The notes under the pieces are model-generated. The model saw only the letters and a list, made by a program, of their open reading frames with translations. It did not search any database and had not been told where the DNA came from. From NCBI GenBank assembly GCA_964414345.1, contig CAYPWF010000005.1:6974-70973 (forward strand): a DNA stretch of 64,000 nucleotides, given 5' to 3'. The stretch's first letter is position 1. Each line of letters opens with the position of its first letter. Shown here piece after piece: positions 130 to 57,918 of the stretch. This DNA is from an uncultured Desulfarculaceae bacterium (lineage in GTDB: Bacteria > Desulfobacterota > Desulfocorpusculales > Desulfocorpusculum). Made by a program: the position numbers and the translations under genes.

Positions 130-224
130 GGCAGTCTCCGAAGCACTGGGATCGGCTGTCCGAAGTATTGTATGATAACGCAGAGCTAACAGGCATGTAA
201 ACCCCTTATGGAGGTTCAATTGCC

Positions 225-425
225 TAGCCCGGGTTATGCGGGATGAGAGGATAATGTTGGCTATCTTAATGACATATTTTGAGAAACCGGTGCATACTCA
301 AAAACAGGGTGAGCTTTGGTCTTAGGTTTTGGGTGCGGTTGAGTCAAAATGTGTGGAAGTGTACCCGGGGCTTGGGGGCTTGAGCCCCCAAAGTCAGAGG
401 CTTTGGAGAATAATCCGGGCTGGAG
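225..425 (-). repeat. Copy D of a ~200-bp intergenic repeat family (inverted orientation). It includes a GGGGGCTTGAGCCCCC hairpin at 375-392.
   Basis: The reverse complement starts CCAGCCCGGATTATTCTCCAAAG and contains GACTCAACC, TTTTTGAGTATGCACCGGTTTCTCAAAATATGTCATTAAGATAGCC and a terminal CGCATAACCCGGGCTAGG. All of these align with copy B at 28335-28545. Confidence 0.6.
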
Positions 426-3112: not shown

Positions 3113-4213
3113 TCAAAAATCAGGCTCCAGCACTATCCTGCGGGTAATGTTACCAGAGTGAGCTTCCTCGAAAGCCTCCTTTATCTGGCTCATGGGCCTT
3201 GTCTGGAGGAAAGGCTCTATCTGGATCTTTCCTTTCTGAACCATCTCCAGCACCACCGGATAATACTTGGGCAGGCATCCCCATGTGCCTATTATCTCGG
3301 CGTCAAAGGCCATGAGTCTTGAGATGCTGTACTCGTTTTTGGCCATTCCGAAGCCTACCACCACCAGTTTCCCCACAAAGGACAGAAGGGTCAGGGCTAT
3401 GTCCTGGCCTGCCTTGGTGCCCGTTACCTCGAAGATCTTCCATCCCCAGTTGTGAGGGAGCTTGTTGGCTTTGCATGTTTCACGGAACTCGTTCTGAATC
3501 GTCTTTACGTCTTTGTCCTTGGAGTTGATTATGGCATCAGCCCCAAACTTCAAAGACCTCTCCAACTTCTCCTGGTTGCGCGCTATGGCCACCACATAGC
3601 GGGCACCCAAGGCCTTGACCATTTGAGTCATGTAAACCCCCACCCCGCCGGTTGCTCCTATCACAACAGCCAAATCTCCTTCTTTGAAACCGGCCCTCAT
3701 GGCCGCCTGGTAGGGGGTGGTTACAGCGTCGGCCACAACCGCGTAGTGGGAGAGGGGAATCCCTTTGGTATCCTCTATCACGCACAGATCCTGAGACGGC
3801 ACCGGGATATGACTGGAAAAACCCCCGTAAGGCCCCAGGCTGTTGCCTGGCATTTTCTGGGCCAGACACCTGTTACCCCGGCCGGCCGCGCAAATGGGGC
3901 AGTTATTGCAAGGCATGACGGCTGGGACTATCACCTTCTTTCCCAGAAGATCTCCAGCCACAACAGTGCCGCTGATCTCGTGGCCTAGGGTCAGGGGAGG
4001 CTTCTCCACTGTGGGCACCCCATCATAGAAATAACCCAAATCCGTGTGACAGACCCCGCATCCCGCCACCTCCACCAGGGACTCCCCCGGCTTCAGCTCG
4101 GGCACGTCCAGTTCAGCCCTTTCCAGTACCCCTTGCGTCACTTCGCCGGTCTCCCTGTTCTTGCTCCAGGGAGTCTTCATCTGCCATGTCTGGATCTTCT
4201 GGGGCGCTGCCAT
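3113..4213 (-). CDS. Zn-dependent medium-chain dehydrogenase. Candidate 6-hydroxycyclohex-1-ene-1-carbonyl-CoA dehydrogenase (Had/BamQ-like), judged from context.
   Basis: GVCHTDLGYFYDG with GHEISG zinc/catalytic motifs and a GATGGVG NAD-binding loop. It lies immediately downstream of bamI and is preceded by the same AGACCA leader motif as bamI. Confidence 0.55.
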   Translation of the reverse strand: MAAPQKIQTWQMKTPWSKNRETGEVTQGVLERAELDVPELKPGESLVEVAGCGVCHTDLGYFYDGVPTVEKPPLTLGHEISGTVVAGDLLGKKVIVPAVMPCNNCPICAAGRGNRCLAQKMPGNSLGPYGGFSSHIPVPSQDLCVIEDTKGIPLSHYAVVADAVTTPYQAAMRAGFKEGDLAVVIGATGGVGVYMTQMVKALGARYVVAIARNQEKLERSLKFGADAIINSKDKDVKTIQNEFRETCKANKLPHNWGWKIFEVTGTKAGQDIALTLLSFVGKLVVVGFGMAKNEYSISRLMAFDAEIIGTWGCLPKYYPVVLEMVQKGKIQIEPFLQTRPMSQIKEAFEEAHSGNITRRIVLEPDF

Positions 4214-8610: not shown

Positions 8611-11600
8611 TTAACGTCCTCCGGTTCCCGTGGCCTTTTTTTCCTCTTCCAGGTTTTGCTCCAGATCAAAAAGCAGTCCTTCTATCTGTGCGTACACTTG
8701 CTCGTCCTTGTAATGCTTGAGGAAAATGGCCCCTGTGGGACACTTGGTGTTGCAAAGCCCGTCCCCTTTGCAAAGCACAGGATTCACGCTGGCCTTTCGG
8801 CCCTGGGGGGTGTCGCGGAACTCTATGGCCCCATAAGTACAGCAGGAGATACAGGCCCCACAGCCCACACACCTCTGCTCCTCCACATCACAGACGGATC
8901 CAGAGGCCACTATTCTGTCCTGGGAAAGCAGGGTTAGGACTCGGCCGGCAGCGCCATAGGCCTGGGAGACAGCCTCTGGAATATGCTTTGGATAGTGGGC
9001 AATGCCGCAAAGATAAACCCCGTCAGCTCCGAAATCCACAGGCCTGAGCTTTACATGAGCCTCCTGGAAAAATCCGTCCGGGTTTAGGTTCACCTTGAAC
9101 AACTGGGCCAACTCCCTGGTTTTGGCCGAGGGGATAACTGCCGCCGCCAAGGCCACTAGATCAACACTTAGTTCCAGTTTCTTGCCCAGCACATAGTCCG
9201 GACAGCTCACTTTAAGGACACTTCTGCCTTCCTCTGTGGCCGCCTCAACCTCGGGCATACTCTGGGGTTCATACCTTATGAATCTAACACCTTTTTCGGC
9301 CGCTTCTCTGTAAGAGTCCTCCCTGAAGCCATAGGTCCTCATGTCCCTGAAAAGAACGTAGACGTCCAAAGCGGGGTTCAGCTCCTTGAGCAGAAGGGCG
9401 TTTTTCACCGAATGGCTACAGCATATTCTGGAGCAGTAATTCCTCTCCTGATTCCTGCAGCCCACACACTGGATCATGGCAATGCTTTGGGCTCCCAGAA
9501 TCCTTTCATCCTTCTTGGCTATGAGCTCTTCCAGCTCTATGTTGGTAAGCACCCTGGGATCTTGCCCGTAGAGATATTCGGTGGGCTTGTACTCCTCTGC
9601 TCCTGTGGCTATCACAGCCGCCCCATGCCGGATCTCCTGCATTCTCCCCTGCGACCTGACACTCGTTGTGAAATTGCCCACATAGCCCTTGCAGCCCAGG
9701 ATGGAGGCCCCAAGGAGCACGTGTATCAGGGGATGCCGGTTGACCTTTTCAATGAGATGTCCCAAATAGTTCTGGACGTCTATTCCCTCCAGGGTGTAAT
9801 GGAGCCTTCGCGCTATCCCTCCCAGCTCATCCTCCTTCTCCAGCAGGTACACTTCATGGCCCTGCTCCGCTATGCTGAGGGCGCAGGTCATACCCGCAAT
9901 CCCACCTCCCACAACCAGGGCCCTCTTGTCCACAGGAAGGTAGAATTCTTCCAGAGGCTCCAGCATCGTGCTTCTGGCCACAGACATTCTGACTATGTCC
10001 TTGGCCTTCTCTGTGGCCTCCTCTTTCTCCCTGGAGTGGACCCAGGAACAATGCTCCCTGATGTTAGCCATGTCAAAGAAATACTGGTTGATGCCGGCCA
10101 TGCGCAGGGTGTCCCTAAACAAGGGCTCGTGTGTCCTTGGAGTGCATGCAGCCACTATCACTCTGTTGAGGCCCTTCTCCTGTATGGTGTCCGCTATGGC
10201 CTTGGCAGAATCGCTGGAGCAGGAGAAAAGCTGCTCCTGGGCATGGGCCACATGGGGTAGGCTTAGGGCGTAATCCACCACAGAGGGGACATCCACCACA
10301 CGTCCTATATTGGCCCCACAGTGGCAAACAAAAACTCCCACTCTGGGTTCCTCTTGGGATACATCTCTCTCAGCAGGGTAAACCCGCTCAGTGGCCAGCT
10401 TTCCTCGCCTTCGCCTCAAGAGCTCCCCGCATTTTGAGCCGGCTCCGCTTGCACTCACAACGCTCTCTGGTATGTCCACTGGCCCCTGGAAGGCGCCGCT
10501 TACATAGATGCCGGGACGGGTTGTCTCTATGGGATTGCCTGGGTTTGTTTTGCAGAAACCGTGCTCATTCAGCTCTATGCCGAATATCTTAGCCAGATCC
10601 TCTGCCCCCGCGGGCGGCCTCAGGCCCACGGACAAGACCACCATGTCAAACTCCTCTTCCTTGACCCCCTCCTCGAAGGTGGAATACCTTATTCTTACCC
10701 CTTTGGTCTCAGGGTTCTCCCCAACCACCGAGACGTAGCTTCTCACAAACCTGATACCCGGCAAGCGCTCTGTTCTTTGGTAAAACCTCTCGAAATCCTT
10801 CCCGTAGGATCGGATGTCGTTGTGGAATATGGTGCATTGGGCCTCGGCGTCATGATCCTTGGTAAGGATCACCTGTTTTTGGGTGTATGTGCAGCAGACC
10901 GCCGAACAGTAGCTGTTCCCCCCCGGCAAAACGGTCCTGGAGCCCACGCAATGGATCCAAGCCAGCTTCCTGGGATGTTTTAGATCCGAAGCCCTTCTTA
11001 TCTCCCCCTCATAGGGACCAGTGGAGCAAAGTATCCTCTCGTACTCCAGGCTGGTGACCACATTGTGGAAACGGCCGTAACCGTACCGCTCCAACATCTG
11101 CCGGTCCACTATTTTGTAGCCTGGAGACAGTATGACAGCCCCCACCTTCACTTCCACCCTCTCTGGTTTCTGGGTGAAATCTATGGCCTTGTTCTTACAT
11201 ACGGTCTGGCAGATCCTACATTTCTTTTCCTTGAGATAAAGGCAGTTCTCGTCGATGTATGTGACCAGGGGGATGGCCTGTGAAAAGTATATGTGGATGG
11301 CCTTGTTCTTGGATATGTCCTGGTTGAAGGGATCGGGGACTTTCACAGGGCAATATTCCACGCAGGTTGTACAGCCGGTGCACACATCCTCCAACACATA
11401 CCTGGGCTTTTTCACCAGGGTCACTCTAAAGTCCCCGGGTTCTCCCTCAAGCCTCTCCACCTCCGTATAGGTCATGATCTCTATGTTCTGGTGCCTGCTG
11501 CATTCGATGAACTTGGGAGACTCTATGCACATGGAGCAATCATTGGTGGGAAAGGTCTTGTCCAGAAGAGCCATGTGTCCGCCTATGGCCGGAGACTCCT

Positions 11601-11745: not shown

Positions 11746-11968
11746 ATCTCATCCCCTCATGGTTGAAAACCTAGGCCAGAACCATCCAAACCATACCATA
11801 CGCCAAAGTCCCTCATCGGGGGTTAAACCCCAGGCCCTTGTAAGAGCTTCACATTTTCCGACTCAAGCCCAAGCAGAACCGGAAATAAAGCTACCTATGA
11901 GCATGGACCATTTTTCATCTTGCCGTGACCCCCAAGAAGGCCCAAATCAGGCTCCTGAGCAACACAAT

Positions 11969-13240: not shown

Positions 13241-13789
13241 TCATTCTTTCTTGGAAACTTTCTCACCCGAAACTCTAGCTATGGTCTCTATGACCTTCTC
13301 CATACCATATTTTTCCAAGAGGGCTTCAACACCCATCTCCAGATCCTCGGGCTTGGCATCTTCTTGCCCTTCCTCTTCCCTCTCCTCGTAGGTCAAGGCA
13401 TCCACCAAACACCACTTCACGCACATGGGCTCTTTGAGCTCCGGGTCGTCCTCGCACATGTCGCACTTGAGGGGCAGTCCTGAGTCGGGCTCCTTGAAAA
13501 GATCCCTGGAAGAGCAGGAGGCGTTACAGAAGTTGCATTCCCCGTAGTCCCTTCCGTCTATCACATAAGAATGTCTTCCGGCGCACTCGGCCTCGGCATG
13601 ATACCCGGCCCTGATAGGCAGAAAAACATTGTCCAGTTCGTCCCTAATCACCCTTATCCTGGATCTGGAAGGGTTGTTGCTGGCGTACTTTGGCGAGGAA
13701 TGAAAGGCTGAGCAGGCAACCTCGCAAGCCCTGCAGCCGTTACACTTGTCCACATCAACCTTTATGGATTTTATCTTCTTTTTTTGCAC
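13241..13789 (-). CDS. bamC: BamC-like: small poly-ferredoxin (4Fe-4S) electron-transfer subunit
   Basis: CNGCRACEVAC, CNFCNASC and CDMCEDDP...CVKWC cluster-binding motifs; 182 aa (~20 kDa); directly downstream of the AOR-family gene. Confidence 0.75.
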   Translation of the reverse strand: MQKKKIKSIKVDVDKCNGCRACEVACSAFHSSPKYASNNPSRSRIRVIRDELDNVFLPIRAGYHAEAECAGRHSYVIDGRDYGECNFCNASCSSRDLFKEPDSGLPLKCDMCEDDPELKEPMCVKWCLVDALTYEEREEEGQEDAKPEDLEMGVEALLEKYGMEKVIETIARVSGEKVSKKE

Positions 13790-13925
13790 CGTCGACTCCT
13801 TTCCCGCGGCCCGAGTCTTCCTACAAGGCCCAAAACTAATCTAAGAGTCTTCCCAGACTTCAGAACCAAGACCCCCTCACGCTGCTTCCAAACTCCTTAG
13901 ACCCAGCTTCCAAGTCTCACCCCGC

Positions 13926-24889: not shown

Positions 24890-25095
24890 GCACTAACCCG
24901 GATTATACTGCAAGGCCTGTGACTTTGGGGGCCACGCCCCCCCAAGCCCCAGGCACTCTCTAGCATATCCCGACTCTGACCAGGGCCGAATCTGAAACCG
25001 AGGATCAGGGTGTCTTTGAGCATGGCCCGGTTTGTCCGAACAATCCATTGAGATAACCCGCATTATTTACTTATGGTGAATGATGTGGGCCGCGT
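24890..25095 (+). repeat. Copy A of the ~200-bp intergenic repeat family
   Basis: Starts CTAACCCGGATTATACTGC; contains CCAGGGCCGAATCTGAAACCGAGGATCAGG and TTTGAGCATGGCCCGGTTTGTCCGAAC. Its terminal TAACCCGCATTATTTAC is in direct rather than inverted orientation. Confidence 0.6.
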
Positions 25096-25263
25096 GCGGG
25101 TTGGCTTTTCCATGTGATAGGCCGAGTTGAACCATACTCGAGAACATGCTGATTTCAGGTTCTGGGGGGTATGTGAGAAAATGTGGAAATTTGGCTGGGG
25201 CTTGAGGGTTTCCCTTAGGTCCAAATCCTGCAAAATCAAAGCCCATCCGCCCTGCAATGCGGG

Positions 25264-25923
25264 CTAGTTTGTCTCTAGAATCCCGAACAAGAGCTTTCTG
25301 AACCGACGGATATCCAGCTCTGAGACCCTTGAGCCTATTCGGGCTAAGAACACATTTTCCTCTCTTATGGCTACGTTGGGCTCGTTGGTTGGGTACTCCT
25401 TGAAACCATATGGTTTCATCAAGTTGATCATCATCTGGCGATACTGGGCCAGGGTAAAGCCGGTCCCCTCCAAATCCCAATGCCAGGAAAATCCGTTCAT
25501 ATAAGCTATCTTCTCCTCATAGAAGTCCCTGTCCATGGCCATGTGTACCAGTTTTTGGGCGATCCCCAGGTTTCTCCAGTTCCGGCTTACCTCGATGGCT
25601 CCCATTTCATACATGAGTTTTCCCAAGGCAGCCCACCTTTCCCCTGGGGAGGGGTAATAGCAGCAGGCATATCCCACCACCATATTTCCATCTGCCAGTG
25701 CCAAGATCACATTCCCATCCTCCCCGGAAGCTATTCGTTGGAACAGCTCCAGCTTCTGTATCATGGAGGAGTAATGAGCGAATCTTCCCAACCCCGGGTC
25801 CAATTTAAGTCCGAGAAAGGACTCTGGTGGGCAAAGTGCCCTGAAAAGCAGCTCCCCCCTGGGGGTCTCAACCCTTTGCTCATTGATCTGACCGGGCTTG
25901 GGGCACATCAGAAGTCGCTCCAA
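25264..25923 (-). CDS. GNAT-fold acetyltransferase-like protein (AcuA-like)
   Basis: 219 aa with a GNAT-like core (RNLGIAQKLVHMAM); tandem with a second GNAT gene. Confidence 0.45.
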   Translation of the reverse strand: MERLLMCPKPGQINEQRVETPRGELLFRALCPPESFLGLKLDPGLGRFAHYSSMIQKLELFQRIASGEDGNVILALADGNMVVGYACCYYPSPGERWAALGKLMYEMGAIEVSRNWRNLGIAQKLVHMAMDRDFYEEKIAYMNGFSWHWDLEGTGFTLAQYRQMMINLMKPYGFKEYPTNEPNVAIREENVFLARIGSRVSELDIRRFRKLLFGILETN

Positions 25924-28334: not shown

Positions 28335-28545
28335 AGTTAGCCCGGATTATTCTCAAAAGACCTTGGGCTTTAGGGCTATGCCCCCAAACCCCCAACTAAG
28401 CCTAAGCCTGGTTCGACTCAAACCAGGGCCAAACCTGAAACCGGGAATCAAGCTTTTTTTGAGCATGGACAAGTTTATCCAAATATGTCAATAAGATAGC
28501 CTGTATTGTTCACTCATCGTGAATAATGCGGGTTAGGTCTCCTTA
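28335..28545 (+). repeat. Copy B of the ~200-bp intergenic repeat family, with imperfect terminal inverted repeats
   Basis: 5' TTAGCCCGGATTATTCTC ... 3' GTGAATAATGCGGGTTAGG, whose reverse complement is CCTAACCCGCATTATTCAC (13/15 match to the 5' end). Interior shares CCAGGGCCAAACCTGAAACCGGGAATCAAG, TTTTTGAGCATGGACAAGTTTATCCAAATATGTCAATAAGATAGCC with copies A and D. Confidence 0.65.
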
Positions 28546-41871: not shown

Positions 41872-42004
41872 CCCCTCACCTCCCTCACGAGGATAGAACC
41901 CATAAGTTCCAGCAAGCATAGCGTACTTGTAACAGTATGCAAAGACGGAAATCCTTCTCCCAAAGAATTGGAAGGCAAAACCTCGGCCTTTCAGCCCGCA
42001 TCAC

Positions 42005-42046
42005 TGACGATGATTGAATAATCGGGTTAGATCCCAGCATGCCCGC
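42005..42046 (-). repeat. Partial copy (terminal motif only) of the intergenic repeat family
   Basis: The reverse complement, TCTAACCCGATTATTCAATCATCG, matches the TAACCCGCATTATTCACGATGAGTG end of copy B. Confidence 0.4.
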
Positions 42047-44977: not shown

Positions 44978-45310
44978 CTAGCCCTGGGCCGTTATCCCGA
45001 GCCGATCCTCACAGACTCTCATGCGGGCCTTGAGGTCCCCCATCTCATTGGCCAAGACCAGGTAATCCCGGTCGAACCTGGCCACAATGGCCCTGATGTT
45101 CTCCTTGATTTCGGTAAGTTCCGTCTCCATTCGCCCCAGACGCTCCTCCATGCGAGCAAATCTTTGGTCCATCTGGGCAAATCTTTGGTCCATCTGGGCA
45201 AATCTTTGGTCCATCTGGGCGAACCTCTGGTCCATCTCCCTTCTGAGGCCTTTGATCTCTTCCCGAATGTCTATGAGCACTTGCAAGGTGATGTCTTTGA
45301 TCTCATCCAT
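44978..45310 (-). CDS. Small coiled-coil protein containing a perfect tandem heptad repeat (MDQRFAQ)x4
   Basis: Translation ...REMDQRFAQMDQRFAQMDQRFAQMDQRFARMEERL...; encoded by 21-bp tandem repeats. Confidence 0.5.
   Translation of the reverse strand: MDEIKDITLQVLIDIREEIKGLRREMDQRFAQMDQRFAQMDQRFAQMDQRFARMEERLGRMETELTEIKENIRAIVARFDRDYLVLANEMGDLKARMRVCEDRLGITAQG
45155..45238. repeat. 21-bp tandem repeat (GCAAATCTTTGGTCCATCTGG) in four copies (three perfect, one diverged) inside a CDS
   Basis: Directly visible at 45155-45175, 45176-45196, 45197-45217 and 45218-45238. Confidence 0.9.
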
Positions 45311-45623
45311 TGAAACCCGCCTCCTTGCCTTTTGGGCACAGAGCGCAGCTGGGCCAAGGGCTTCTTGAGGACCATTCTAACATGGAAACTGCTAGACCGC
45401 ATTATTCAAGATGAGTTGACAACACAGCCCATCTTCATGATAGATCAGGACACACCCCTCCATGCTCAAAAACACCCTGATCTTCTTTTTCATATTTGGA
45501 ACAGGTTCCAGTCGGCATATCTCAAAGCGCACCGGGGCTTCTTTGCGCAGCCCCAAAAGTCAAAGGTCTTGGAGTATGATCTGGGCCAGCTTTTCTCTTT
45601 GCGCTCCAGCCAAGGCAGACCCT

Positions 45624-49860: not shown

Positions 49861-50062
49861 TCATCCTTCCTCCCCTTCTCCCTGCCCTTTCACCCTTCAC
49901 CCTTCACTCTTCATTCTTCACTCTTAATTCTTCATTCTTCACTCTTAATTCTTCATTCTTCACTCTCACTCTTCACTCTTCATTCTTCATTCTTCATTTC
50001 TCCCCCTCTCCCCTTCCCCGCGTCTCCGCCTCTCCGAGTCTCCCCCTCCCCCTCCTTCTCAT
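49861..50062. repeat. Pyrimidine-rich (plus strand) / purine-rich (mRNA strand) microsatellite made of CTTCA(C/T)T- and TTCATTC-type units, followed by a (CTCCC)n-like tract
   Basis: ...cacccttcacccttcactcttcattcttcactcttaattcttcattcttcactcttaattc...ctccccctctccccttccccgcgtctccgcctctccgag... Lies in the intergenic space between the SBP stop and the permease start. Confidence 0.85.
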
Positions 50063-52145: not shown

Positions 52146-52350
52146 CTTAGCCCGGATTATTCTCGAGGACCGGGGGTATTTGGGGCTGAGCCCAAATCCC
52201 ACGTTGCTGTTTGCTCTGTTCAGGTTTCAATCAGGGCCGGACCCGCAACAAAGAAATGCGGTGTTCTTGACCGTGATTCAGTTCACATCTAGACATAATG
52301 GTGTCAGCCAGCATTATCCACCCCTGGGTGAAAAACGCGAGGCAAGTGAT
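52146..52350 (+). repeat. Copy C (diverged) of the ~200-bp intergenic repeat family
   Basis: Starts TTAGCCCGGATTATTCTCGAGGACC; contains the TTTGGGGCTGAGCCCAAAT hairpin and a CAGGGCCGGACCCGCAAC segment. Confidence 0.5.
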
Positions 52351-52355
52351 GAGTT

Positions 52356-53645
52356 TCACATAAGGCTCCTGGCCACCCCTACCGTGAGTTCTCCCAACAT
52401 GTGAGTATAAGAACCCAGTTCATTGTCATACCAGCCGTACACCACCACCTGGGTGATGGGGACCTCAAGAATCCCCTCTCGAATCCCTTTGAGAGAGTCT
52501 TGAGCCACAGCACAAAGCCTTGCCAGATTCACCCGGAGATTGGCCGTGCGGGTGTGAGTTTCCTTTCCCTCTATGATGGCCGCCGCAGCCGTGCCTATGA
52601 CATCCGCCGAGACGTTCTGTTTCTCCGTGTATGAAAGGTAGGGGCTCAGGTAGCCTTCCGCAGCCTTTTTGTAAATGGAGTTGATCAAGTCCCTCCTGAT
52701 GGGGGTTGAGGGATCCTCCTCTTGGATGTTTAAGACCAAAATCACCAAGGAGCCTGTGCTGGTGGGGATGCGCACCGACTCTGCCATGAAGCCCACTTCC
52801 CTCATCTCCGGGATAACCAATCTCAAAGCCTCTGCCGCCCCTGTTGTAGTAAGTATGATGTTGTTGAAGGTGCTCCTGTTTTTGCGCAGATCCTTGGCTT
52901 TGGGGTCAGGCAGCCTGTCCAGCACTTCCTGGCTGCCGGTTGCTGCATGCACCGTCACCATGGAGGCGGTCAAAAGAGGTCCTTGTCCAAAATGATCCAA
53001 GATGGGCCTCATCATGAAAGCCAGGCAGGTGGTAGTGCACGAGGCTGCAGAGATGATCCGGTGGCGGCCGGGTAGGTAATCATGCTCATTTATACCCTGT
53101 ATGGCGGTCACTGCATCCTCGGGCATAGAAGCGGACTTGTCCTTGATTTTGAAAGGTGCGGAAAGAATAACCTTCTGTGCTCCTGCCTCCAGATGTGCCC
53201 TCAAGCTTCCTTTGGGGGCATCCCCAGGGGCCGTTGGGTCGGTGAAGGCCCCTGTACAGTCCACCACCAACGAAACGTTCTGTTCCCTCCAAGGGATCTC
53301 CCTGGGATTGCGGCTCTGGCGAAGCACCTTCACCTTGACACCATTCACCTTCATGCTGGATCGGTCCTCATCCAGTTCCTCTATGACGCGCCCCCCCTTG
53401 TATCCAAACAAGAACCTATCCAGGCTTCCATACGTGCTGTCTCTGAGCACATAATCGGCTATGTCCTCCAGCCCCTTCCCCACATCCCTACCTACGTTCA
53501 CCACCAGCTCCTGGAAGGAGCGCCTGGCAACATGATGCCATAAGGTGAGCTTCCCTATCCTGCCCAGCCCGTTTATGCCTAGAGGCATGGGCAGCGTCGA
53601 CTCCTCCGAGCACAGAAAAGGATGATCCTTTGCTGTGAGACTCAT
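52356..53645 (-). CDS. Divergent glyceraldehyde-3-phosphate-dehydrogenase-family paralog (429 aa)
   Basis: N-terminal LGINGLGRIGK (compare INGFGRIGR) and active-site-like SAASCTTTCLAF (compare [12 protein letters not shown]); about 95 aa longer than canonical GAPDH; immediately downstream of the 1422-aa gene. Confidence 0.6.
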   Translation of the reverse strand: MSLTAKDHPFLCSEESTLPMPLGINGLGRIGKLTLWHHVARRSFQELVVNVGRDVGKGLEDIADYVLRDSTYGSLDRFLFGYKGGRVIEELDEDRSSMKVNGVKVKVLRQSRNPREIPWREQNVSLVVDCTGAFTDPTAPGDAPKGSLRAHLEAGAQKVILSAPFKIKDKSASMPEDAVTAIQGINEHDYLPGRHRIISAASCTTTCLAFMMRPILDHFGQGPLLTASMVTVHAATGSQEVLDRLPDPKAKDLRKNRSTFNNIILTTTGAAEALRLVIPEMREVGFMAESVRIPTSTGSLVILVLNIQEEDPSTPIRRDLINSIYKKAAEGYLSPYLSYTEKQNVSADVIGTAAAAIIEGKETHTRTANLRVNLARLCAVAQDSLKGIREGILEVPITQVVVYGWYDNELGSYTHMLGELTVGVARSLM

Positions 53646-53649
53646 GTTC

Positions 53650-56600
53650 TCACCTCCCCATGTGCATTACTTCCCCTGCCGCCCTCAGGGTCTTGTGCTC
53701 CACAGGATGGCGTCCCAAGTAGATGGAGCCGCCCCTGCCGTCCATGCTCAGAAAGTCCCCCTCTCGAATCACCACATCATGGATCCGACAAGGACCTCTT
53801 TCGCTCAGCAAGCGCAGCCCTCCGGTGCCCACAACACAGGTCTTCCCAAGCCTCAGAGCCACTATGGCAGCATGGGAGGTCTGGCCCCCCTTGGCGGTGA
53901 GAAGCCCGTCGCTGAGCGATATCTCCTTGATGTCGTCCGGCACAGTATCCGAACGTATAAGAATCAAAGGTGTCTCAGGCTCCTTCTCCCTCCATCTCTG
54001 GATCTCCTCCAGGGTGAAGACCGCCCTTCCCGACAAAGCGCCGCCGCTCACCCCAGTCCCTTTTCCCAGGTAATGCTCATGAAGATCGCTAGAGGCCACG
54101 AAGACCGGCATTGTCTCCGTGCGCCTCATGGTGACCATGTCCCTTGTCTGCAAAACATAAAGACTGTCCGGATCAGGTCCTTCGAAAGTAAACTCTATTT
54201 CCTGGGGGTTCCATCCCTTGTCGTAAACCAGCATCTTGCAGACCCCCTCCAGAGCCCTGTAAACCCCTGGGAACTCCTCTTCCAGGGTAGGCTCCCCATG
54301 ACGGCCAGACTCCTCCCTCTGCTCCCTGGAGATGGGGTAGGTTGTCACTAGGCCGGCCACTATGTCCTCGCCCTGGTTCATGGCCGTGTAGTCCCCCCAA
54401 AGCACCACACGACGCATGCGCTTGGCTGGATTTGCAGTAAATAGGACTCCGCTTCCAGAGTTGGGACCAATATTTCCAAAGACCATTGCCTGCACGATCA
54501 CGGCAGTGCCCCAGTCATCGGAGATCCCCATTATTTCCCTGTAATCCCTTGCCTTGCTTGAGTCCCAGGAGTAGATGACTCTATGAATCGCTGTCTCCAA
54601 CTGTTCCCAAGGATCCTCCTCGATCCTGATGTGGCGTTCCTCCAGGGCTCTCTTATAGGCCAGGGCCATTTCCCGCATCTGCTCTCCGGTGAACTGGCGC
54701 TTCTTTTCAACAGCGTGTCTGGCCTTCCATTCCCTCATGATCTCGTTGAAGGCCTCTCTCTCCATTCCGAAAGACATTCCCCAAGATTGCAGGAAGCGCC
54801 GGTAGTTGTCCCATGCAAACCAGGGGTTCCCAGAGGAGGCGGCCAAGCCCTGGGCCACCTCTTCATTGATGCCCACATTGAGCAGGGTGTCCATCATTCC
54901 GGGCATGGATATGGTGGCCCCGCTTCGCACGGACACCAGAAGAGGCCTATGGGGATCCCCGAAACGGTTCCCTGTGGCCTCCTCCATTTCCCTAATCTCC
55001 GAGCTTATCTGATCCAGAAAGTCCTCGTGGGCCTGCGGAAACCTCAGCACTATGTGGTGGCAGCGGGAAACTTCCGTGGTAATTATGAAGCCTGGTGGGA
55101 CCTTCACACCCGCCTCTGCCAAGACCACCAGATTGTATCCTTTGGAACCCAGGTGGATGGAGTCCCGGGTGAGCTCTTTGGCCTGGTGGATGGGGGAGAC
55201 CACCTTGTCCGGATCGTAGGTCATGAGCAGATCCAGATCCTCCTCCGATAGGGTCTCTTTCTGAAGGGCTAGGGTCTGATGTATCTTGGTCAGAAAATTG
55301 TCCAGATATTGGAGTCCAAAGGTGCTGGAGACCAGGTCCCTCAGGAAGCGCTCCGAGATGCGGTGCACGAAGGCCTCATCGTCCTGGTCCGCGGCGTATC
55401 CCACGTAAGTGGGAAGGATGTGTTTTCGGCCCAAAGAGCTTATGACCATTGTCAGGTTGTCTTTGTGCACGTCCGCATAGTAAACATTGAGGATGTCTTT
55501 TACGCCTTCAGAAAGGCCCCTCAGGATGTCCAAGTACTGGGTGTAAGTGAATCTTCTGATCTCCAGCGACTTCTCCAAGAGTTTGAACTGGGCGTCCAGG
55601 CGCTGGGAGGATATGCCGTCTATCTGCATGGCCCGGATAAAAAGCCTGATGCAACGCACGATTCTGAAGAAAACGGCACGGGTTATGAGGGAGAGGTTTA
55701 CGGAGCCTATGAGCCGTTCAAAATAGAGATTTGCCAGGTTCTCCAGCCTGAAAGAAAGCCCCAAGGCATCGAACTTTCTCTCGTGGTAGCGCCCGTACAT
55801 GGAAGGAATGTCTGCAGCTATGTGCCTCTTATGGTAAATGTCTTCGGTGACCTCATAGGTCTCAGGGGAGAGAATGACCTCTTTTAGCTTCTCCAGATAA
55901 CTTAGAAGCACATCCAGACATTCTTCGGGATCATCACGATCCAGGACTGCCTGTAGCTTCTCCAGACCCGTAAATCCGTGTGCAGCCGCCTGGGAGAGGT
56001 GATACCTGATTTCCTGGAAACCAAGGTAGTATTTTTGGTAAACCAGCCTGTACATTCTGACCAGGAGACGCACTCTTTCCCGCTCAATATCGCTGACCCC
56101 CTGAACTTTGGAAACCGCCCGGCTGAGTTCTTCCTCGGGGAGATCCAGCAGATCCTTCACTCCTTTGAGGTTGTAATCCCGAAAAACTTGGCTCATCACC
56201 TTGTGGGGTTCCAAAACCAGTGGGCTTTCAGGATCCAACTGTTGGAAGACTTCCTCGGGGAGAAAATGGGAAAGCCCTGACTTGTCCAAGCTGATCCAAA
56301 ATCGGAAAATCTCCTCCACGAATTCCACGATTAGGTTGCTGCTCTCCACATGACTTTGCTTTCTGAGAAAGTGGATCAGGGGATCGCGCCTTCTGTGGAT
56401 TTCGTCCATGTCAGTGGAGACGTCCCTTAACAGGCCCTCTGCACCTATCTCGTTGAAGAAAGCCGGGATCAACTTGGTGAGCTGTTTGACCAAGTTGTAA
56501 AGGGGAGCTATGTCGCTATTCAGCAGCTTGCTTATGTCCTTCTGGAAGAGGTCCGTGTCTCTTATGCAGGTGCCTGCCAGTTTCAGATTTATGATAAGGG

Positions 56601-57918
56601 CCGAGAGCAAAGTGGTGCACCACTTAGGCTGAATACAAATCAGGTCCAGCCAGATGCGGATGTTCAGTAGGTGGTTGGGGTTGCAAAGCCATTGCCATTC
56701 TGTGTCAACCCCTGTCACCTCCGGAGGCTGGAACCCGAAGCGCACCACCTGCTCCAAAAATACCTCCACCAGCCTGGACTGCCCCTTCTTAAAGACCTCC
56801 TGACCTATGGCGTTAATGCACTGAAGGGCAGTACGGGGATAGTGCACCACATTTTCTTTTAGCAAAGAAAAGGTCCTGAGCAGGAAGGACTCCAGCCTCT
56901 GGGGTAGCTCGCTCCTGATCATCTCTGTTAGAGAGCGCTGGATGTCCCTCAAGGTCTCCTCGTAGATCTCAGAGAGCCTAGAGGTGTTCATTATCTTAAA
57001 GAGGAGCAGAATCTTTCCGTCCCTGAGCAGATCCTCACCTGCCCCTTTGGAGGTAAGATTCAGGGCTGACATGCGCTCTGGGAGTTCACGGTACATCCGA
57101 ACCAGTTCCAGATGGCCGGGCATCTGCAAGAGCTTTTTTGCTGTCTCCACCGGGGTGAAGCCTCCATCCAAGCCCTCCAGGAACTTGAGGTGGCCCTTCA
57201 ACCTGTGGTGGGAAAGTTCCGCAAGCAGATCGCTCAACGGGCCGGAAGGGGGCTCCTGTGCGAACTCCTTTCTAAACCAGGCCACAGGATCTTCCTCTTG
57301 CAGCCATTCCAGATAAGTTATGTGCAACAGCTCCTTTAGGAGCTCATTGAGAGGGACCAAGCCTGCTCCGTCGGACTCCATGGAGAGAAGATTCAAACCC
57401 ATTCTCTTAAGGGGATGGTAGCTCCTGGCCAATAGCTCTTTTTGAGGCTGGGGAAGCCCTTTTAGCCGCTCCAGAGCCTCCCCCAGGACTTCAATATAGG
57501 GCTTTGGATCCTCTGAGAGGCATGTTTGAACCACCTTCTCCATGTAACTCAGGGCACACTCCAAGGCCTGGGACTGGATCTCCTTGCGCTTGGCAAGGCT
57601 CATGGCCTCCAGGAAGACCTCCAAGATAAGGCCCACCGCCTCATGCCCCTTGGGGTGGCGCCTGTAAGAGTCCAGGTTCTTGAGGGCAAAACCTCTCAAC
57701 TCCGAAAGTATCAGCTTCCAGTTGCGGAATGGGTGATGAAGCTCGAAGAGCAAGGAGTCCACGGTCTTGCGAAGACCTCTGTATTCAGAGACCACCTCCT
57801 GGAGCACCCTGAACCTGGGATGGATGTGCACGCTGGAGACCGCCGTCTCCTCAAGGTTACGGCGAAGCGCCTCTGATTCTTCCAGGAGTGCCCTTGAATC
57901 CATACCATCCGAGCTCAT
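53650..57918 (-). CDS. Large multidomain phosphotransferase-like protein: novel ~880-aa N-terminal region, then a PEP-synthase/PPDK-type nucleotide-binding domain, then a PEP-utilizer phosphohistidine swivel domain
   Basis: PPDK_N-like HLGSKGYNLVVLAEAGVKVPPGFIITTE around aa 900; C-terminal mobile domain KGGQTSHAAIVALRLGKTCVVGTGG. No PEP/pyruvate-binding TIM barrel follows. Confidence 0.6.
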   Translation of the reverse strand: MSSDGMDSRALLEESEALRRNLEETAVSSVHIHPRFRVLQEVVSEYRGLRKTVDSLLFELHHPFRNWKLILSELRGFALKNLDSYRRHPKGHEAVGLILEVFLEAMSLAKRKEIQSQALECALSYMEKVVQTCLSEDPKPYIEVLGEALERLKGLPQPQKELLARSYHPLKRMGLNLLSMESDGAGLVPLNELLKELLHITYLEWLQEEDPVAWFRKEFAQEPPSGPLSDLLAELSHHRLKGHLKFLEGLDGGFTPVETAKKLLQMPGHLELVRMYRELPERMSALNLTSKGAGEDLLRDGKILLLFKIMNTSRLSEIYEETLRDIQRSLTEMIRSELPQRLESFLLRTFSLLKENVVHYPRTALQCINAIGQEVFKKGQSRLVEVFLEQVVRFGFQPPEVTGVDTEWQWLCNPNHLLNIRIWLDLICIQPKWCTTLLSALIINLKLAGTCIRDTDLFQKDISKLLNSDIAPLYNLVKQLTKLIPAFFNEIGAEGLLRDVSTDMDEIHRRRDPLIHFLRKQSHVESSNLIVEFVEEIFRFWISLDKSGLSHFLPEEVFQQLDPESPLVLEPHKVMSQVFRDYNLKGVKDLLDLPEEELSRAVSKVQGVSDIERERVRLLVRMYRLVYQKYYLGFQEIRYHLSQAAAHGFTGLEKLQAVLDRDDPEECLDVLLSYLEKLKEVILSPETYEVTEDIYHKRHIAADIPSMYGRYHERKFDALGLSFRLENLANLYFERLIGSVNLSLITRAVFFRIVRCIRLFIRAMQIDGISSQRLDAQFKLLEKSLEIRRFTYTQYLDILRGLSEGVKDILNVYYADVHKDNLTMVISSLGRKHILPTYVGYAADQDDEAFVHRISERFLRDLVSSTFGLQYLDNFLTKIHQTLALQKETLSEEDLDLLMTYDPDKVVSPIHQAKELTRDSIHLGSKGYNLVVLAEAGVKVPPGFIITTEVSRCHHIVLRFPQAHEDFLDQISSEIREMEEATGNRFGDPHRPLLVSVRSGATISMPGMMDTLLNVGINEEVAQGLAASSGNPWFAWDNYRRFLQSWGMSFGMEREAFNEIMREWKARHAVEKKRQFTGEQMREMALAYKRALEERHIRIEEDPWEQLETAIHRVIYSWDSSKARDYREIMGISDDWGTAVIVQAMVFGNIGPNSGSGVLFTANPAKRMRRVVLWGDYTAMNQGEDIVAGLVTTYPISREQREESGRHGEPTLEEEFPGVYRALEGVCKMLVYDKGWNPQEIEFTFEGPDPDSLYVLQTRDMVTMRRTETMPVFVASSDLHEHYLGKGTGVSGGALSGRAVFTLEEIQRWREKEPETPLILIRSDTVPDDIKEISLSDGLLTAKGGQTSHAAIVALRLGKTCVVGTGGLRLLSERGPCRIHDVVIREGDFLSMDGRGGSIYLGRHPVEHKTLRAAGEVMHMGR

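What the first reader, a model, noticed from the sequence alone, without database searches (positions are those of the whole stretch)
28335..28545. Family of ~200-bp intergenic repeat elements with a conserved 5' motif, a covarying GC hairpin and (in one copy) terminal inverted repeats: MITE-like or small-RNA candidates
At least four full copies (225-425 reverse, 24890-25095, 28335-28545, 52146-52350) and one partial copy (42005-42046) share TTAGCCCGGATTATTCTC at one end. A G/C hairpin follows ~15-25 nt later and its stem sequence differs between copies yet remains self-complementary (GGGGGCTCAAGCCCCC, TTTGGGGCTGAGCCCAAA, GGGGGCCACGCCCCC). Conserved blocks CAGGGCC-AA-CTGAAACCG and TTTTTGAGCATGG-C--GTTT-TCCAAATATGTCAATAAGATAGCC also recur. 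Copy B ends in the inverted complement of its own 5' motif (TIR-like). In copy A the last ~35 bp are flipped relative to B. All copies are strictly intergenic. Compensatory stem changes argue for a structured RNA, and the TIRs for a non-autonomous mobile element. Either is undescribed for this genome.
Basis: seen in the sequence. Interest (0 to 1): 0.65.

Follow-up and report, generated by a model that had tools for sequence, protein, structure and literature searches.

The report
Small non-coding jumping-DNA repeat (MITE) family
The repeats are copies of a roughly 195-bp non-coding mobile element (a MITE) that has spread to probably hundreds of sites in an uncultured hot-spring bacterium; I found no evidence that they are a family of structured RNA genes, so this is an ordinary kind of element in a newly seen family.

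Summary
The repeat family is real. The window holds five full copies, one truncated copy, one degenerate copy and one 40-nt remnant. About 45 further independent copies occur in related hot-spring metagenome contigs.

Each copy is a 191-bp core with sharp boundaries. It has 12-bp terminal inverted repeats (CCCGGATTATTC / GAATAATGCGGG) and a third, subterminal copy of that motif that forms a long 3' hairpin. A 4-bp direct repeat, YTAR, flanks the core and matches between the two ends of a copy, so it is a target-site duplication.

A sister genome (about 96% identical) lacks the copy named in the finding. It carries an extra copy nested in another element, exactly at a CTAG that is single in the window. 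A more distant relative has an empty site and no detected copies in 21 kb.

There is no Rfam match, almost no consensus RNA fold, only marginal covariation, no G·U versus A·C strand bias and no orientation bias. Orthologous copies diverge faster than third codon positions.

Verdict: a new MITE family. It was probably mobilised by an IS5-like DDE transposase, which I did not find. The structured-RNA half has no support.

The parts
28337..28536 (+). Copy C, the copy named in the finding. It is complete: TSD TTAG (28337-28340), a 191/192-bp core, then TSD TTAG (28533-28536).
   Evidence: nhmmer model positions 2-198, E=2e-50. The ends were read directly. The copy is absent from the orthologous site of the sister genome, L052 about 10618-10632.
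28341..28352 (+). 5' terminal inverted repeat of copy C, CCCGGATTATTC.
   Evidence: These columns are more than 90% conserved across 44 copies.
28521..28532 (+). 3' terminal inverted repeat of copy C, GAATAATGCGGG. It is the reverse complement of the 5' repeat except at one position.
28497..28535 (+). 3' terminal hairpin. A subterminal direct copy of the terminal-repeat motif (GCCTGTATTGTTCAC) pairs with the 3' terminal repeat.
   Evidence: Folds. Pair counts for helix 3.
28369..28388 (+). G/C hairpin of copy C. The family consensus is TTTGGGGGC-TAC-GCCCCCAAA; in this copy it is degenerate.
   Evidence: (helix 1).
224..423 (-). Copy A, full length. Its flanking tetranucleotides are CCAG and CTAG.
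   Evidence: nhmmer E=1e-47. The orthologous copy is present in the sister genome, L032/L053.
24893..25090 (+). Copy B, full length, with 5' TSD CTAA. Its 3' end is interrupted, and its original terminus TGCGGGCTAG now lies at 25258-25267.
   Evidence: nhmmer E=6e-55. Compared with the uninterrupted orthologue in L052 at 13680-13877.
25091..25257 (-). Copy B', a degenerate related copy in inverted orientation, inserted in or abutting the 3' end of B. It is absent from the sister genome.
   Evidence: nhmmer model positions 36-198, E=1e-9. The window has about 165 extra nt relative to L052.
45392..45589 (-). Copy E, full length.
   Evidence: Inverted-repeat pair I1. nhmmer E=3e-43.
52147..52345 (+). 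Copy D, an old full-length copy only 60% identical to the consensus. It lies between the GAPDH paralogue and the ABC-transporter binding-protein gene.
   Evidence: nhmmer E=4e-33. The site is empty in a more distant relative, where L062 has a 15-nt spacer.
52289..52292 (+). A single CTAG inside copy D. This is the empty target site; in the sister genome another full copy sits here, flanked by CTAG on both sides.
   Evidence: Window TTCACAT-CTAG-ACATAATGG versus L056 CTAG-[element 9855-9657]-CTAG.
11798..11915 (+). Copy F, truncated and diverged, covering model positions 13-140 only.
   Evidence: nhmmer E=5e-12. An orthologous truncated copy is at L053 9823-9955.
41991..42030 (-). Remnant G, a 'solo hairpin' with TSDs CTAA and CTGA. 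It arose by internal deletion between the 5' terminal repeat and the subterminal direct repeat of a copy that is still full length in the sister genome.
   Evidence: (L056 20180-20377 is full length).

Best explanation

Each copy has a 191-bp core bounded by 12-bp terminal inverted repeats (5' CCCGGATTATTC ... GAATAATGCGGG 3'). A third, subterminal copy of the same motif pairs with the 3' repeat to form a hairpin of about 15-17 bp. There is also an internal G/C hairpin.

Insertion goes into the tetranucleotide YTAR (CTAG, CTAA, TTAG, TTAA), which is duplicated on both sides. That is the mark of a staggered 4-nt cut by a DDE-type transposase acting in trans. The three copies of the repeat motif are most simply read as the transposase-binding sites.

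Shown here: the anatomy, the duplication, multiple dispersed copies, nested insertions, gain and loss between close relatives, and neutral decay.

Inferred only: the transposase is IS5-like. This rests on the fact that YTAR with a 4-bp duplication is the signature of IS5. No autonomous partner was found.

The host is an uncultured hot-spring member of the Thermodesulfobacteriota. By extrapolation the family probably has a few hundred copies per genome. The elements sit in intergenic DNA, often right at a neighbouring gene's stop codon, where the duplication regenerates the TAA/TAG.
For: - Sharp boundaries. Conservation falls from more than 80% to background exactly outside the flanking tetranucleotides in 50 copies.
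- Terminal inverted repeats match at 11 of 12 positions, and these columns are over 90% conserved.
- Target-site duplication, in 44 non-orthologous copies. The two flanking tetranucleotides are identical at position 4 in 39 of 44 (shuffle mean 21.2, P<1e-4) and at position 1 in 34 of 44 (shuffle mean 25.7, P=4e-4). All four bases match in 23 of 44 (7.8 expected). The alternative inverted-repeat model shows no excess: 19 of 44 against 21.
- Clean empty versus filled pair. The window has a single CTAG at 52289-52292 where the sister genome has CTAG-element-CTAG.
- Copy C is absent from the sister genome.
- The site of copy D is a 15-nt spacer in a more distant relative, which has no detected copies in 21 kb.
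- Nested insertions in L018 and L011 restore an intact host copy when removed in silico.
- No coding capacity.
- Density is about one copy per 7-10 kb.
- Copies range from 60% to 94% identity to the consensus, as expected from activity over a long period followed by decay.
- Orthologous copies are 88.3% identical between window and sister genome. Third codon positions are 92.3% identical and other intergenic DNA 92.0%, so there is no purifying selection.
- IS5 target-site duplications follow 5'-YTAR-3' (PMC5009759).
Against: - No autonomous element with these terminal repeats, and no multi-copy transposase ORF, turned up in the roughly 0.65 Mb of related sequence held, in PLSDB plasmids or in IMG/VR.
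- The terminal repeats do not obviously resemble the E. coli IS5 ends (my recollection of those ends, not a test).
- A 4-bp duplication also occurs in other IS families, for example IS701 (PMC6352166). The IS5-like assignment is therefore tentative.
- The empty site for copy C has a diverged left flank with about 10 nt of length difference. That case could be insertion in one lineage or imprecise loss in the other.
- There is a small excess of double compensatory changes in the palindromes: 24 cells against 12.9 in shuffles. This is not fully explained. Subfamily structure, or co-variation of the three protein-binding repeats, would account for it, but I did not show that.
Confidence: 0.9

Rival explanations
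1. The copies are a family of structured small-RNA genes or cis-regulatory RNA elements. Their hairpins would be maintained by selection at the RNA level.
For: - Single copies fold well below shuffled controls: z = -3.8 as RNA and z = -5.6 for the consensus folded as DNA.
- There is a slight excess of compensatory double changes and pair types over column shuffles.
- Individual copies show triple co-variation of the repeat motif, for example L039:9832 (GGATCAT) and L056:9656 (CCTCATTAT/ATAATGAGG).
Against: - No Rfam family matches at gathering score or at E up to 10.
- RNAalifold finds only 7 consensus pairs, at -3.8 kcal/mol.
- Paired cells are 83.1% against 81.4% in shuffles, so the pairing is almost entirely inherited sequence identity.
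- G·U versus A·C mismatches are symmetric: 38 vs 30 in the 3' hairpin and 15 vs 17 in the terminal-repeat pairing. Neither strand is favoured as an RNA.
- Elements lie in either orientation relative to flanking genes, about 10 the same way and 13 opposite.
- No consistent promoter- or terminator-like sites.
- Orthologous copies evolve faster than third codon positions.
- Copies are gained, lost, nested and truncated between close relatives.
Confidence: 0.04
2. The copies are REP/REPIN-like or IS200/IS605-derived palindromic elements (PATEs). A Y1 HUH transposase (a RAYT or TnpA) would mobilise them as single-stranded DNA, recognising the subterminal hairpins.
For: - The 3' end carries a long imperfect palindrome, and there is a second G/C hairpin.
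- An IS200-like tnpA is present in the same community, and in L033 it is inserted inside a copy.
Against: - Elements of those kinds have no terminal inverted repeats and make no target-site duplication (established knowledge of IS200/IS605 and REPINs). Here both are present, and the 4-bp flanks match between the two ends of a copy as direct repeats.
- The empty/filled pair shows a duplicated CTAG.
- The IS200-like gene in L033 is an unrelated insertion that interrupts a copy. The orthologue of that copy, in L007, is intact.
Confidence: 0.03
3. It is a MITE of the IS630/Tc1-mariner type, like Correia, ERIC or RUP. It would insert at TA within CTAG and duplicate only TA, with the outer C/G or T/A bases belonging to the terminal inverted repeats.
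For: - TA is the invariant centre of the flanking tetranucleotide, and CTAG is a frequent target.
- I recall IS630 as targeting CTAG and duplicating TA. I did not check this here.
Against: Positions 1 and 4 of the flanks match between the two ends as direct repeats, not inverted ones. Examples are CTAA...CTAA in 9 copies, TTAG...TTAG, TTAA...TTAA, CCAA...CCAA and ACAA...ACAA. The inverted model fits in 19 of 44 copies against 21 expected by chance.
Confidence: 0.03

Closest known systems
IS5-family insertion sequences (IS5 group) and MITEs derived from them
   Same: Both have a 4-bp target-site duplication with consensus 5'-YTAR-3' (IS5: PMC5009759; here). Both have short terminal inverted repeats and favour non-coding DNA.
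   Different: No transposase gene or full-length parent was found. I see no resemblance between these terminal repeats and the E. coli IS5 ends as I recall them. Other families such as IS701 also make 4-bp duplications.
Correia elements (CREE/NEMIS) of Neisseria
   Same: Both are non-coding elements of about 100-200 bp with terminal inverted repeats. Both occur at a hundred or more copies, mostly intergenic, with strain-to-strain presence/absence differences (review PMC10969869).
   Different: As I recall, Correia elements duplicate TA and have 26-bp repeats. They carry demonstrated promoters, an IHF site and RNase III processing sites. Here the duplication is 4 bp (YTAR), and no consistent promoter-like site or functional constraint was detected.
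Chunjie MITE of Geobacter uraniireducens Rf4
   Same: The size is similar (178-235 bp). There are many full and partial copies, the elements are intergenic, they fold stably, and the host is a relative in the former Deltaproteobacteria (PMC3184786; PMC10969869).
   Different: Chunjie has 21-bp terminal repeats, 9-bp direct repeats and is A+T-rich. The present family has 12-bp repeats plus a subterminal repeat, 4-bp YTAR duplications, and G+C close to that of its host.
REP/BIME and REPIN elements
   Same: They are short intergenic palindromic repeats at high copy number. The 40-nt 'solo hairpin' remnants of this family (for example window 41991-42030) look REP-like.
   Different: REPs and REPINs lack terminal inverted repeats and target-site duplications, and are linked to RAYT transposases (established knowledge). 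Here the hairpin remnant arose by internal deletion of a full MITE.

Membership tests
Prokaryotic MITE | Short (under about 500 bp) with no coding capacity | tested here: met
   The core is 191 bp. Most reading frames of the consensus contain stops, and the one open 62-codon frame and a 50-residue frame give no Pfam match. Indels among copies break any frame.
Prokaryotic MITE | Terminal inverted repeats | tested here: met
   CCCGGATTATTC / GAATAATGCGGG match at 11 of 12 positions, and 83% of cells pair across 44 copies.
Prokaryotic MITE | Flanking target-site duplication | tested here: met
   The 4-bp YTAR flanks are direct repeats. They are identical in 23 of 44 copies against 7.8 expected, and positions 1 and 4 match between the ends with P<=4e-4. 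The empty/filled pair shows CTAG.
Prokaryotic MITE | Multiple dispersed copies, with presence/absence differences at orthologous loci | tested here: met
   More than 60 copies in about 0.28 Mb of related contigs and the window. Copy C is absent from the sister genome, the sister genome has an extra nested copy, and a more distant relative has an empty site.
Prokaryotic MITE | A related autonomous IS with the same ends that supplies the transposase | tested here: inconclusive
   None found in the roughly 0.65 Mb held, in PLSDB or in IMG/VR. Complete genomes of the host could not be searched.
IS5 family (as the source of the transposase) | 4-bp duplication of a YTAR target | tested here: met
   with the literature value from PMC5009759. 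This feature is not unique to IS5: IS701 also makes 4-bp direct repeats.
IS5 family (as the source of the transposase) | An IS5-type DDE transposase gene (DDE_Tnp_1) bounded by the same terminal repeats | tested here: inconclusive
   No such ORF in the held loci. Pfam lists for L048-L063 show no transposase, and there are no multi-copy ORFs.
Structured non-coding RNA family | Match to a curated RNA family | tested here: not met
   Rfam 15 gives 0 hits at gathering score over the whole window, and only chance-level hits (E>1) on copy C.
Structured non-coding RNA family | A conserved secondary structure supported by covariation and by strand-specific wobble pairs | tested here: not met
   RNAalifold gives -3.8 kcal/mol and 7 pairs. 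Pairing is 83.1% against 81.4% in shuffles. G·U and A·C mismatches are symmetric.
Structured non-coding RNA family | Purifying selection on orthologous copies | tested here: not met
   Identity is 88.3% in the elements, 92.3% at third codon positions and 92.0% in other intergenic DNA.
Structured non-coding RNA family | A discrete transcript | not testable with these tools
   No expression data are available.
REP/REPIN or IS200/IS605-derived PATE | No terminal inverted repeats and no target-site duplication; hairpins recognised by a Y1 transposase | tested here: not met
   Terminal repeats and a duplication are both present. The only Y1 transposase gene seen is an independent insertion into one copy.
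IS630/Tc1-type MITE (Correia, ERIC, RUP) | Duplication of TA only | tested here: not met
   The outer bases of the tetranucleotide match between the ends as direct repeats; the inverted model shows no excess.

The most novel reading that the evidence does not exclude
Some copies may have been co-opted by the host. Eight of 44 copies sit exactly on a neighbouring gene's stop codon. The block TTTTGAG(T/C)ATGG is the most conserved internal segment, and many truncated copies end just after it. Copies might therefore act as 3'-end mRNA stabilisers, processing sites or weak internal promoters. Alternatively, the family may be mobilised by a transposase of a family not yet linked to YTAR targets, given that no parent IS was found.
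Probability: 0.1. Interest if true: 0.45.

Novelty: new member of a known kind. Interest (0 to 1): 0.25.

Why it matters
The main value is for annotation. About one element per 7-10 kb means roughly 2-3% of this uncultured thermophile's genome is MITE DNA. That explains why metagenome contigs of this organism break at these sites; for example, L003 ends inside copy D. It also warns against calling the repeats small RNAs or regulatory motifs.

The family gives convenient markers for strain typing in hot-spring populations, because insertions differ between genomes about 96% identical. It adds a thermophilic Thermodesulfobacteriota example to the short list of characterised bacterial MITEs, with a clear YTAR duplication. 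It does not open a new mechanism.

Tried and rejected
- Sigma-54 or sigma-70 promoter inside the conserved TTTGAGCATGG block. I considered this by eye (TTGACA-18-CATGCT on the minus strand). The consensus scan found no site shared by copies B and C, and orientation relative to genes is random, so I dropped it.
- Intrinsic terminator. Neither hairpin is followed by a T-run on either strand.
- Genome-collection scan with a two-block pattern. It returned only 2 matches, about the number I estimated beforehand for chance, in a Spirochaetales MAG and a Parvibaculum MAG; neither matched the family model. The host genome is therefore not among the species representatives.
- Eight of the 42 metagenome loci were likewise not family members: L028, L029, L036, L037, L040, L041, L045 and L047 have no nhmmer hit.
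- Search for the parent IS. I tried terminal-repeat pairs 0.6-3.5 kb apart, multi-copy ORFs, plasmids and viral contigs. Nothing was found.
- Coding remnant. The 62-codon open frame on the minus strand of the consensus has no Pfam match and is broken by indels in real copies.
- The Chunjie primary paper (PMC2516098) is not held, so I used two reviews instead.

Full report
**Observation**

The sequence at 28335-28545 is one copy of a real repeat family. The 18-nt 5' motif occurs 3 times in the window at up to 3 mismatches, against 0.02 expected by chance. The repeat finder linked 24893-, 28337- and 52147- as direct repeats, and 367-431 and 45392-45514 as inverted partners. Six window copies align over about 200 nt.

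A profile search (nhmmer) of the window gave these copies:
- Five full copies: A 224-423(-), B 24893-25090(+), C 28337-28536(+), E 45392-45589(-) and D 52147-52345(+).
- One truncated copy: F 11798-11915(+).
- One degenerate inverted copy abutting B: 25091-25257(-).

**More copies and the host**

The window's proteins are ordinary chromosomal genes: GDP-fucose synthase, HdrA-like, ComF, MinD-like, an Opp-type ABC transporter, GAPDH and PPDK.

A two-block DNA pattern found nothing credible among species-representative genomes. In JGI metagenomes it found 42 loci. Of these, 34 carry family members, and many hold further copies in their flanks.

Exact-protein look-ups showed three things:
- The window is part of a 91,414-bp NCBI contig.
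- The same species, at 99.4% nucleotide identity, occurs in Yellowstone hot-spring metagenomes, including Chocolate Pots (PMC6137239).
- A sister genome at about 96% identity is represented by a 92,090-bp contig.

The nearest named relatives of the PGK protein are 'Thermodesulfobacteriota bacterium' MAGs.

**Anatomy**

In 50 copies, conservation drops abruptly outside a 199-nt unit. The consensus is:

CTAG-CCCGGATTATTCTCCAAAGCCTGTGACTTTGGGGGCTACGCCCCCAAACCCCCGGTACACTTCGACATATTCCGACTCAAACCAGGGCCAAATCTGAAACCGAAAATCAGGGTGTTTTTGAGTATGGACCGGTTTGTCCAAACATGTCATTAAGATAGCCCGCATTATCCACTGATCGTGAATAATGCGGG-CTAG

The 12-nt ends are inverted repeats. A third copy of the motif (GCCCGCATTATCCAC) lies just inside the 3' end and pairs with it in a long hairpin. 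A G5/C5 hairpin lies near the 5' end.

**Target-site duplication**

The flanking tetranucleotides are direct repeats, not inverted ones. Examples are CTAA...CTAA (9 copies), CTAG...CTAG, TTAG...TTAG (copy C), TTAA...TTAA, CCAA...CCAA and ACAA...ACAA.

Results in 44 non-orthologous copies:

| Comparison of the two flanks | Observed | Shuffle mean | P |
|---|---|---|---|
| Position 4 identical | 39 of 44 | 21.2 | <1e-4 |
| Position 1 identical | 34 of 44 | 25.7 | 4e-4 |
| All four bases identical | 23 of 44 | 7.8 | <1e-4 |
| Inverted-repeat model | 19 of 44 | 21 | no excess |

The target consensus is YTAR. This is the motif reported for IS5 duplications (PMC5009759). IS701-family elements also make 4-bp repeats (PMC6352166).

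**Mobility**

Comparing the window with the sister genome gave five differences:
1. Copy C is missing from the sister genome. About 13 nt there replace 219 nt of the window, although the left flank is somewhat diverged.
2. The sister genome has an additional full copy nested inside the orthologue of copy D. It is flanked by CTAG on both sides, exactly where the window has one CTAG (52289-52292). This is a clean empty/filled pair.
3. Window remnant 41991-42030 corresponds to a full copy in the sister genome (L056 20180-20377). The window version lost everything between the 5' terminal repeat and the subterminal direct repeat.
4. The degenerate copy at 25091-25257 is absent from the sister genome.
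5. The sister's orthologue of copy E carries an unrelated 111-nt insert.

Nested insertions in L018 and L011 restore an intact host copy when removed in silico.

In a relative whose PGK is 85% identical, only diverged copies occur. In one at 77%, no copy is detected in 21 kb, and the GAPDH-to-binding-protein spacer that holds copy D is only 15 nt.

Density is 6 copies in the 64-kb window, and 29 extra copies in about 0.2 Mb of flanks. By extrapolation that is a few hundred copies per genome. Copies are 60-94% identical to the consensus, and those in the window are among the older ones.

**Is it an RNA?**

Seven lines of evidence bear on this:
- Rfam: nothing at gathering score over the window, and only chance-level hits on copy C.
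- RNAalifold on 44 copies: 7 pairs, -3.8 kcal/mol.
- Naming the hairpins explicitly: 83.1% of cells pair against 81.4% after shuffling partners. There are 24 double-change cells against 12.9. The terminal-repeat pairing behaves the same way. This is a small excess. The tool's own caveat says related sequences can produce it without any structure.
- Wobble bias: G·U and A·C mismatches are symmetric, 38 vs 30 in the 3' hairpin and 15 vs 17 in the terminal-repeat pairing. Neither strand behaves like an RNA under selection.
- Orientation: about 10 copies lie the same way as flanking co-directional genes and 13 the opposite way. Twelve lie between convergent genes and 3 between divergent ones.
- No shared promoter-like or terminator-like site.
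- Selection: orthologous copies are 88.3% identical between the window and the sister genome. Third codon positions are 92.3% identical, other intergenic DNA 92.0% and coding DNA 96.5%. The elements are decaying at least as fast as neutral sites.

The G/C stem is nearly invariant.

**Mechanism**

The best explanation is a non-autonomous cut-and-paste DNA transposon. A DDE transposase supplied in trans binds the three copies of the repeat motif, makes a 4-nt staggered cut at YTAR and integrates the element. Repair then duplicates YTAR.

The anatomy, the duplication and the gain and loss of copies are shown. The identity of the enzyme (IS5-like) is inferred from the target motif only. No parent IS was found in the held sequence, in plasmids or in viral contigs.

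Because YTAR contains TAA or TAG, insertions at a gene's stop codon regenerate the stop. Eight of 44 copies sit exactly there. This helps explain the strictly intergenic distribution.

**Comparison and novelty**

The family meets every defining feature of a prokaryotic MITE except a demonstrated parent IS. It differs from:
- Correia, ERIC and RUP, which as I recall duplicate TA.
- Chunjie, which has 9-bp direct repeats and 21-bp terminal repeats.
- REP/REPIN and IS200/IS605 derivatives, which have neither terminal repeats nor a duplication.

It is a new member of a known kind. It is useful for annotation and strain typing, but it is not a new mechanism. Interest is about 0.25.

Noticed in passing
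L033:1232-1918 (Ga0209227_1031058): An IS200-like Y1 transposase gene is inserted inside a MITE copy; its translation reads YHFVWIPKYRY...HVHMYLSVPP...GYFVSTVG. The orthologous MITE copy in L007 (1010-1208) is intact. A different mobile element has therefore used the MITE as a landing site.
   Followed up: partly
L056:16645-16755; L016:814-924; window 25091-25257: A second small repeat is present. A 111-nt GC-rich palindromic insert splits the sister-genome orthologue of copy E, and it recurs at 82% identity in L016. Pieces of it are shared with the degenerate insert next to window copy B and with L013/L031. This may be another MITE-like family or a variant of this one.
   Followed up: partly
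window 49889-49998: A tandem array of a 7-nt unit (TTCACTC, about 15 copies) lies in the spacer between the ABC-transporter binding-protein gene and the permease gene. The spacer length differs among close relatives: 235, 273 and 190 nt in L048, L049 and L056. It looks like a variable-number repeat.
   Followed up: partly
window 45156-45237: A 21-nt in-frame tandem repeat (about 4 copies, 95% matches) lies inside a small ORF with no family assignment (44978-45310, minus strand). The product length differs among relatives: 138, 110 and 103 aa in L048, L049 and L056.
   Followed up: no
window 52356-57918 (minus strand): A 1422-aa PPDK-like protein (PPDK_N plus PEP-utilizers domains) is followed directly by a long 429-aa GAPDH paralogue. 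A second, normal 334-aa GAPDH lies upstream. The arrangement is conserved in relatives down to 77% PGK identity. It is an unusual glycolytic or gluconeogenic gene cluster.
   Followed up: no
L030:1589-1710, L042:273-399, L019:517-637, L020:1158-1265, L021:396-511, L023:4351-4479, window 11798-11915: Many truncated copies keep only the first 120-145 nt and end near the highly conserved TTTTGAG block, with unrelated sequence after it. The recurrent break point is unexplained. It could be a deletion hot spot, one-ended events or a distinct short form.
   Followed up: partly
L003 (SRR10095342 contig, ends at 9776), L024 (ends at 3151): Short-read metagenome contigs of this organism end inside MITE copies (copies D and B respectively). 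This suggests the repeat breaks up assemblies of this lineage.
   Followed up: no
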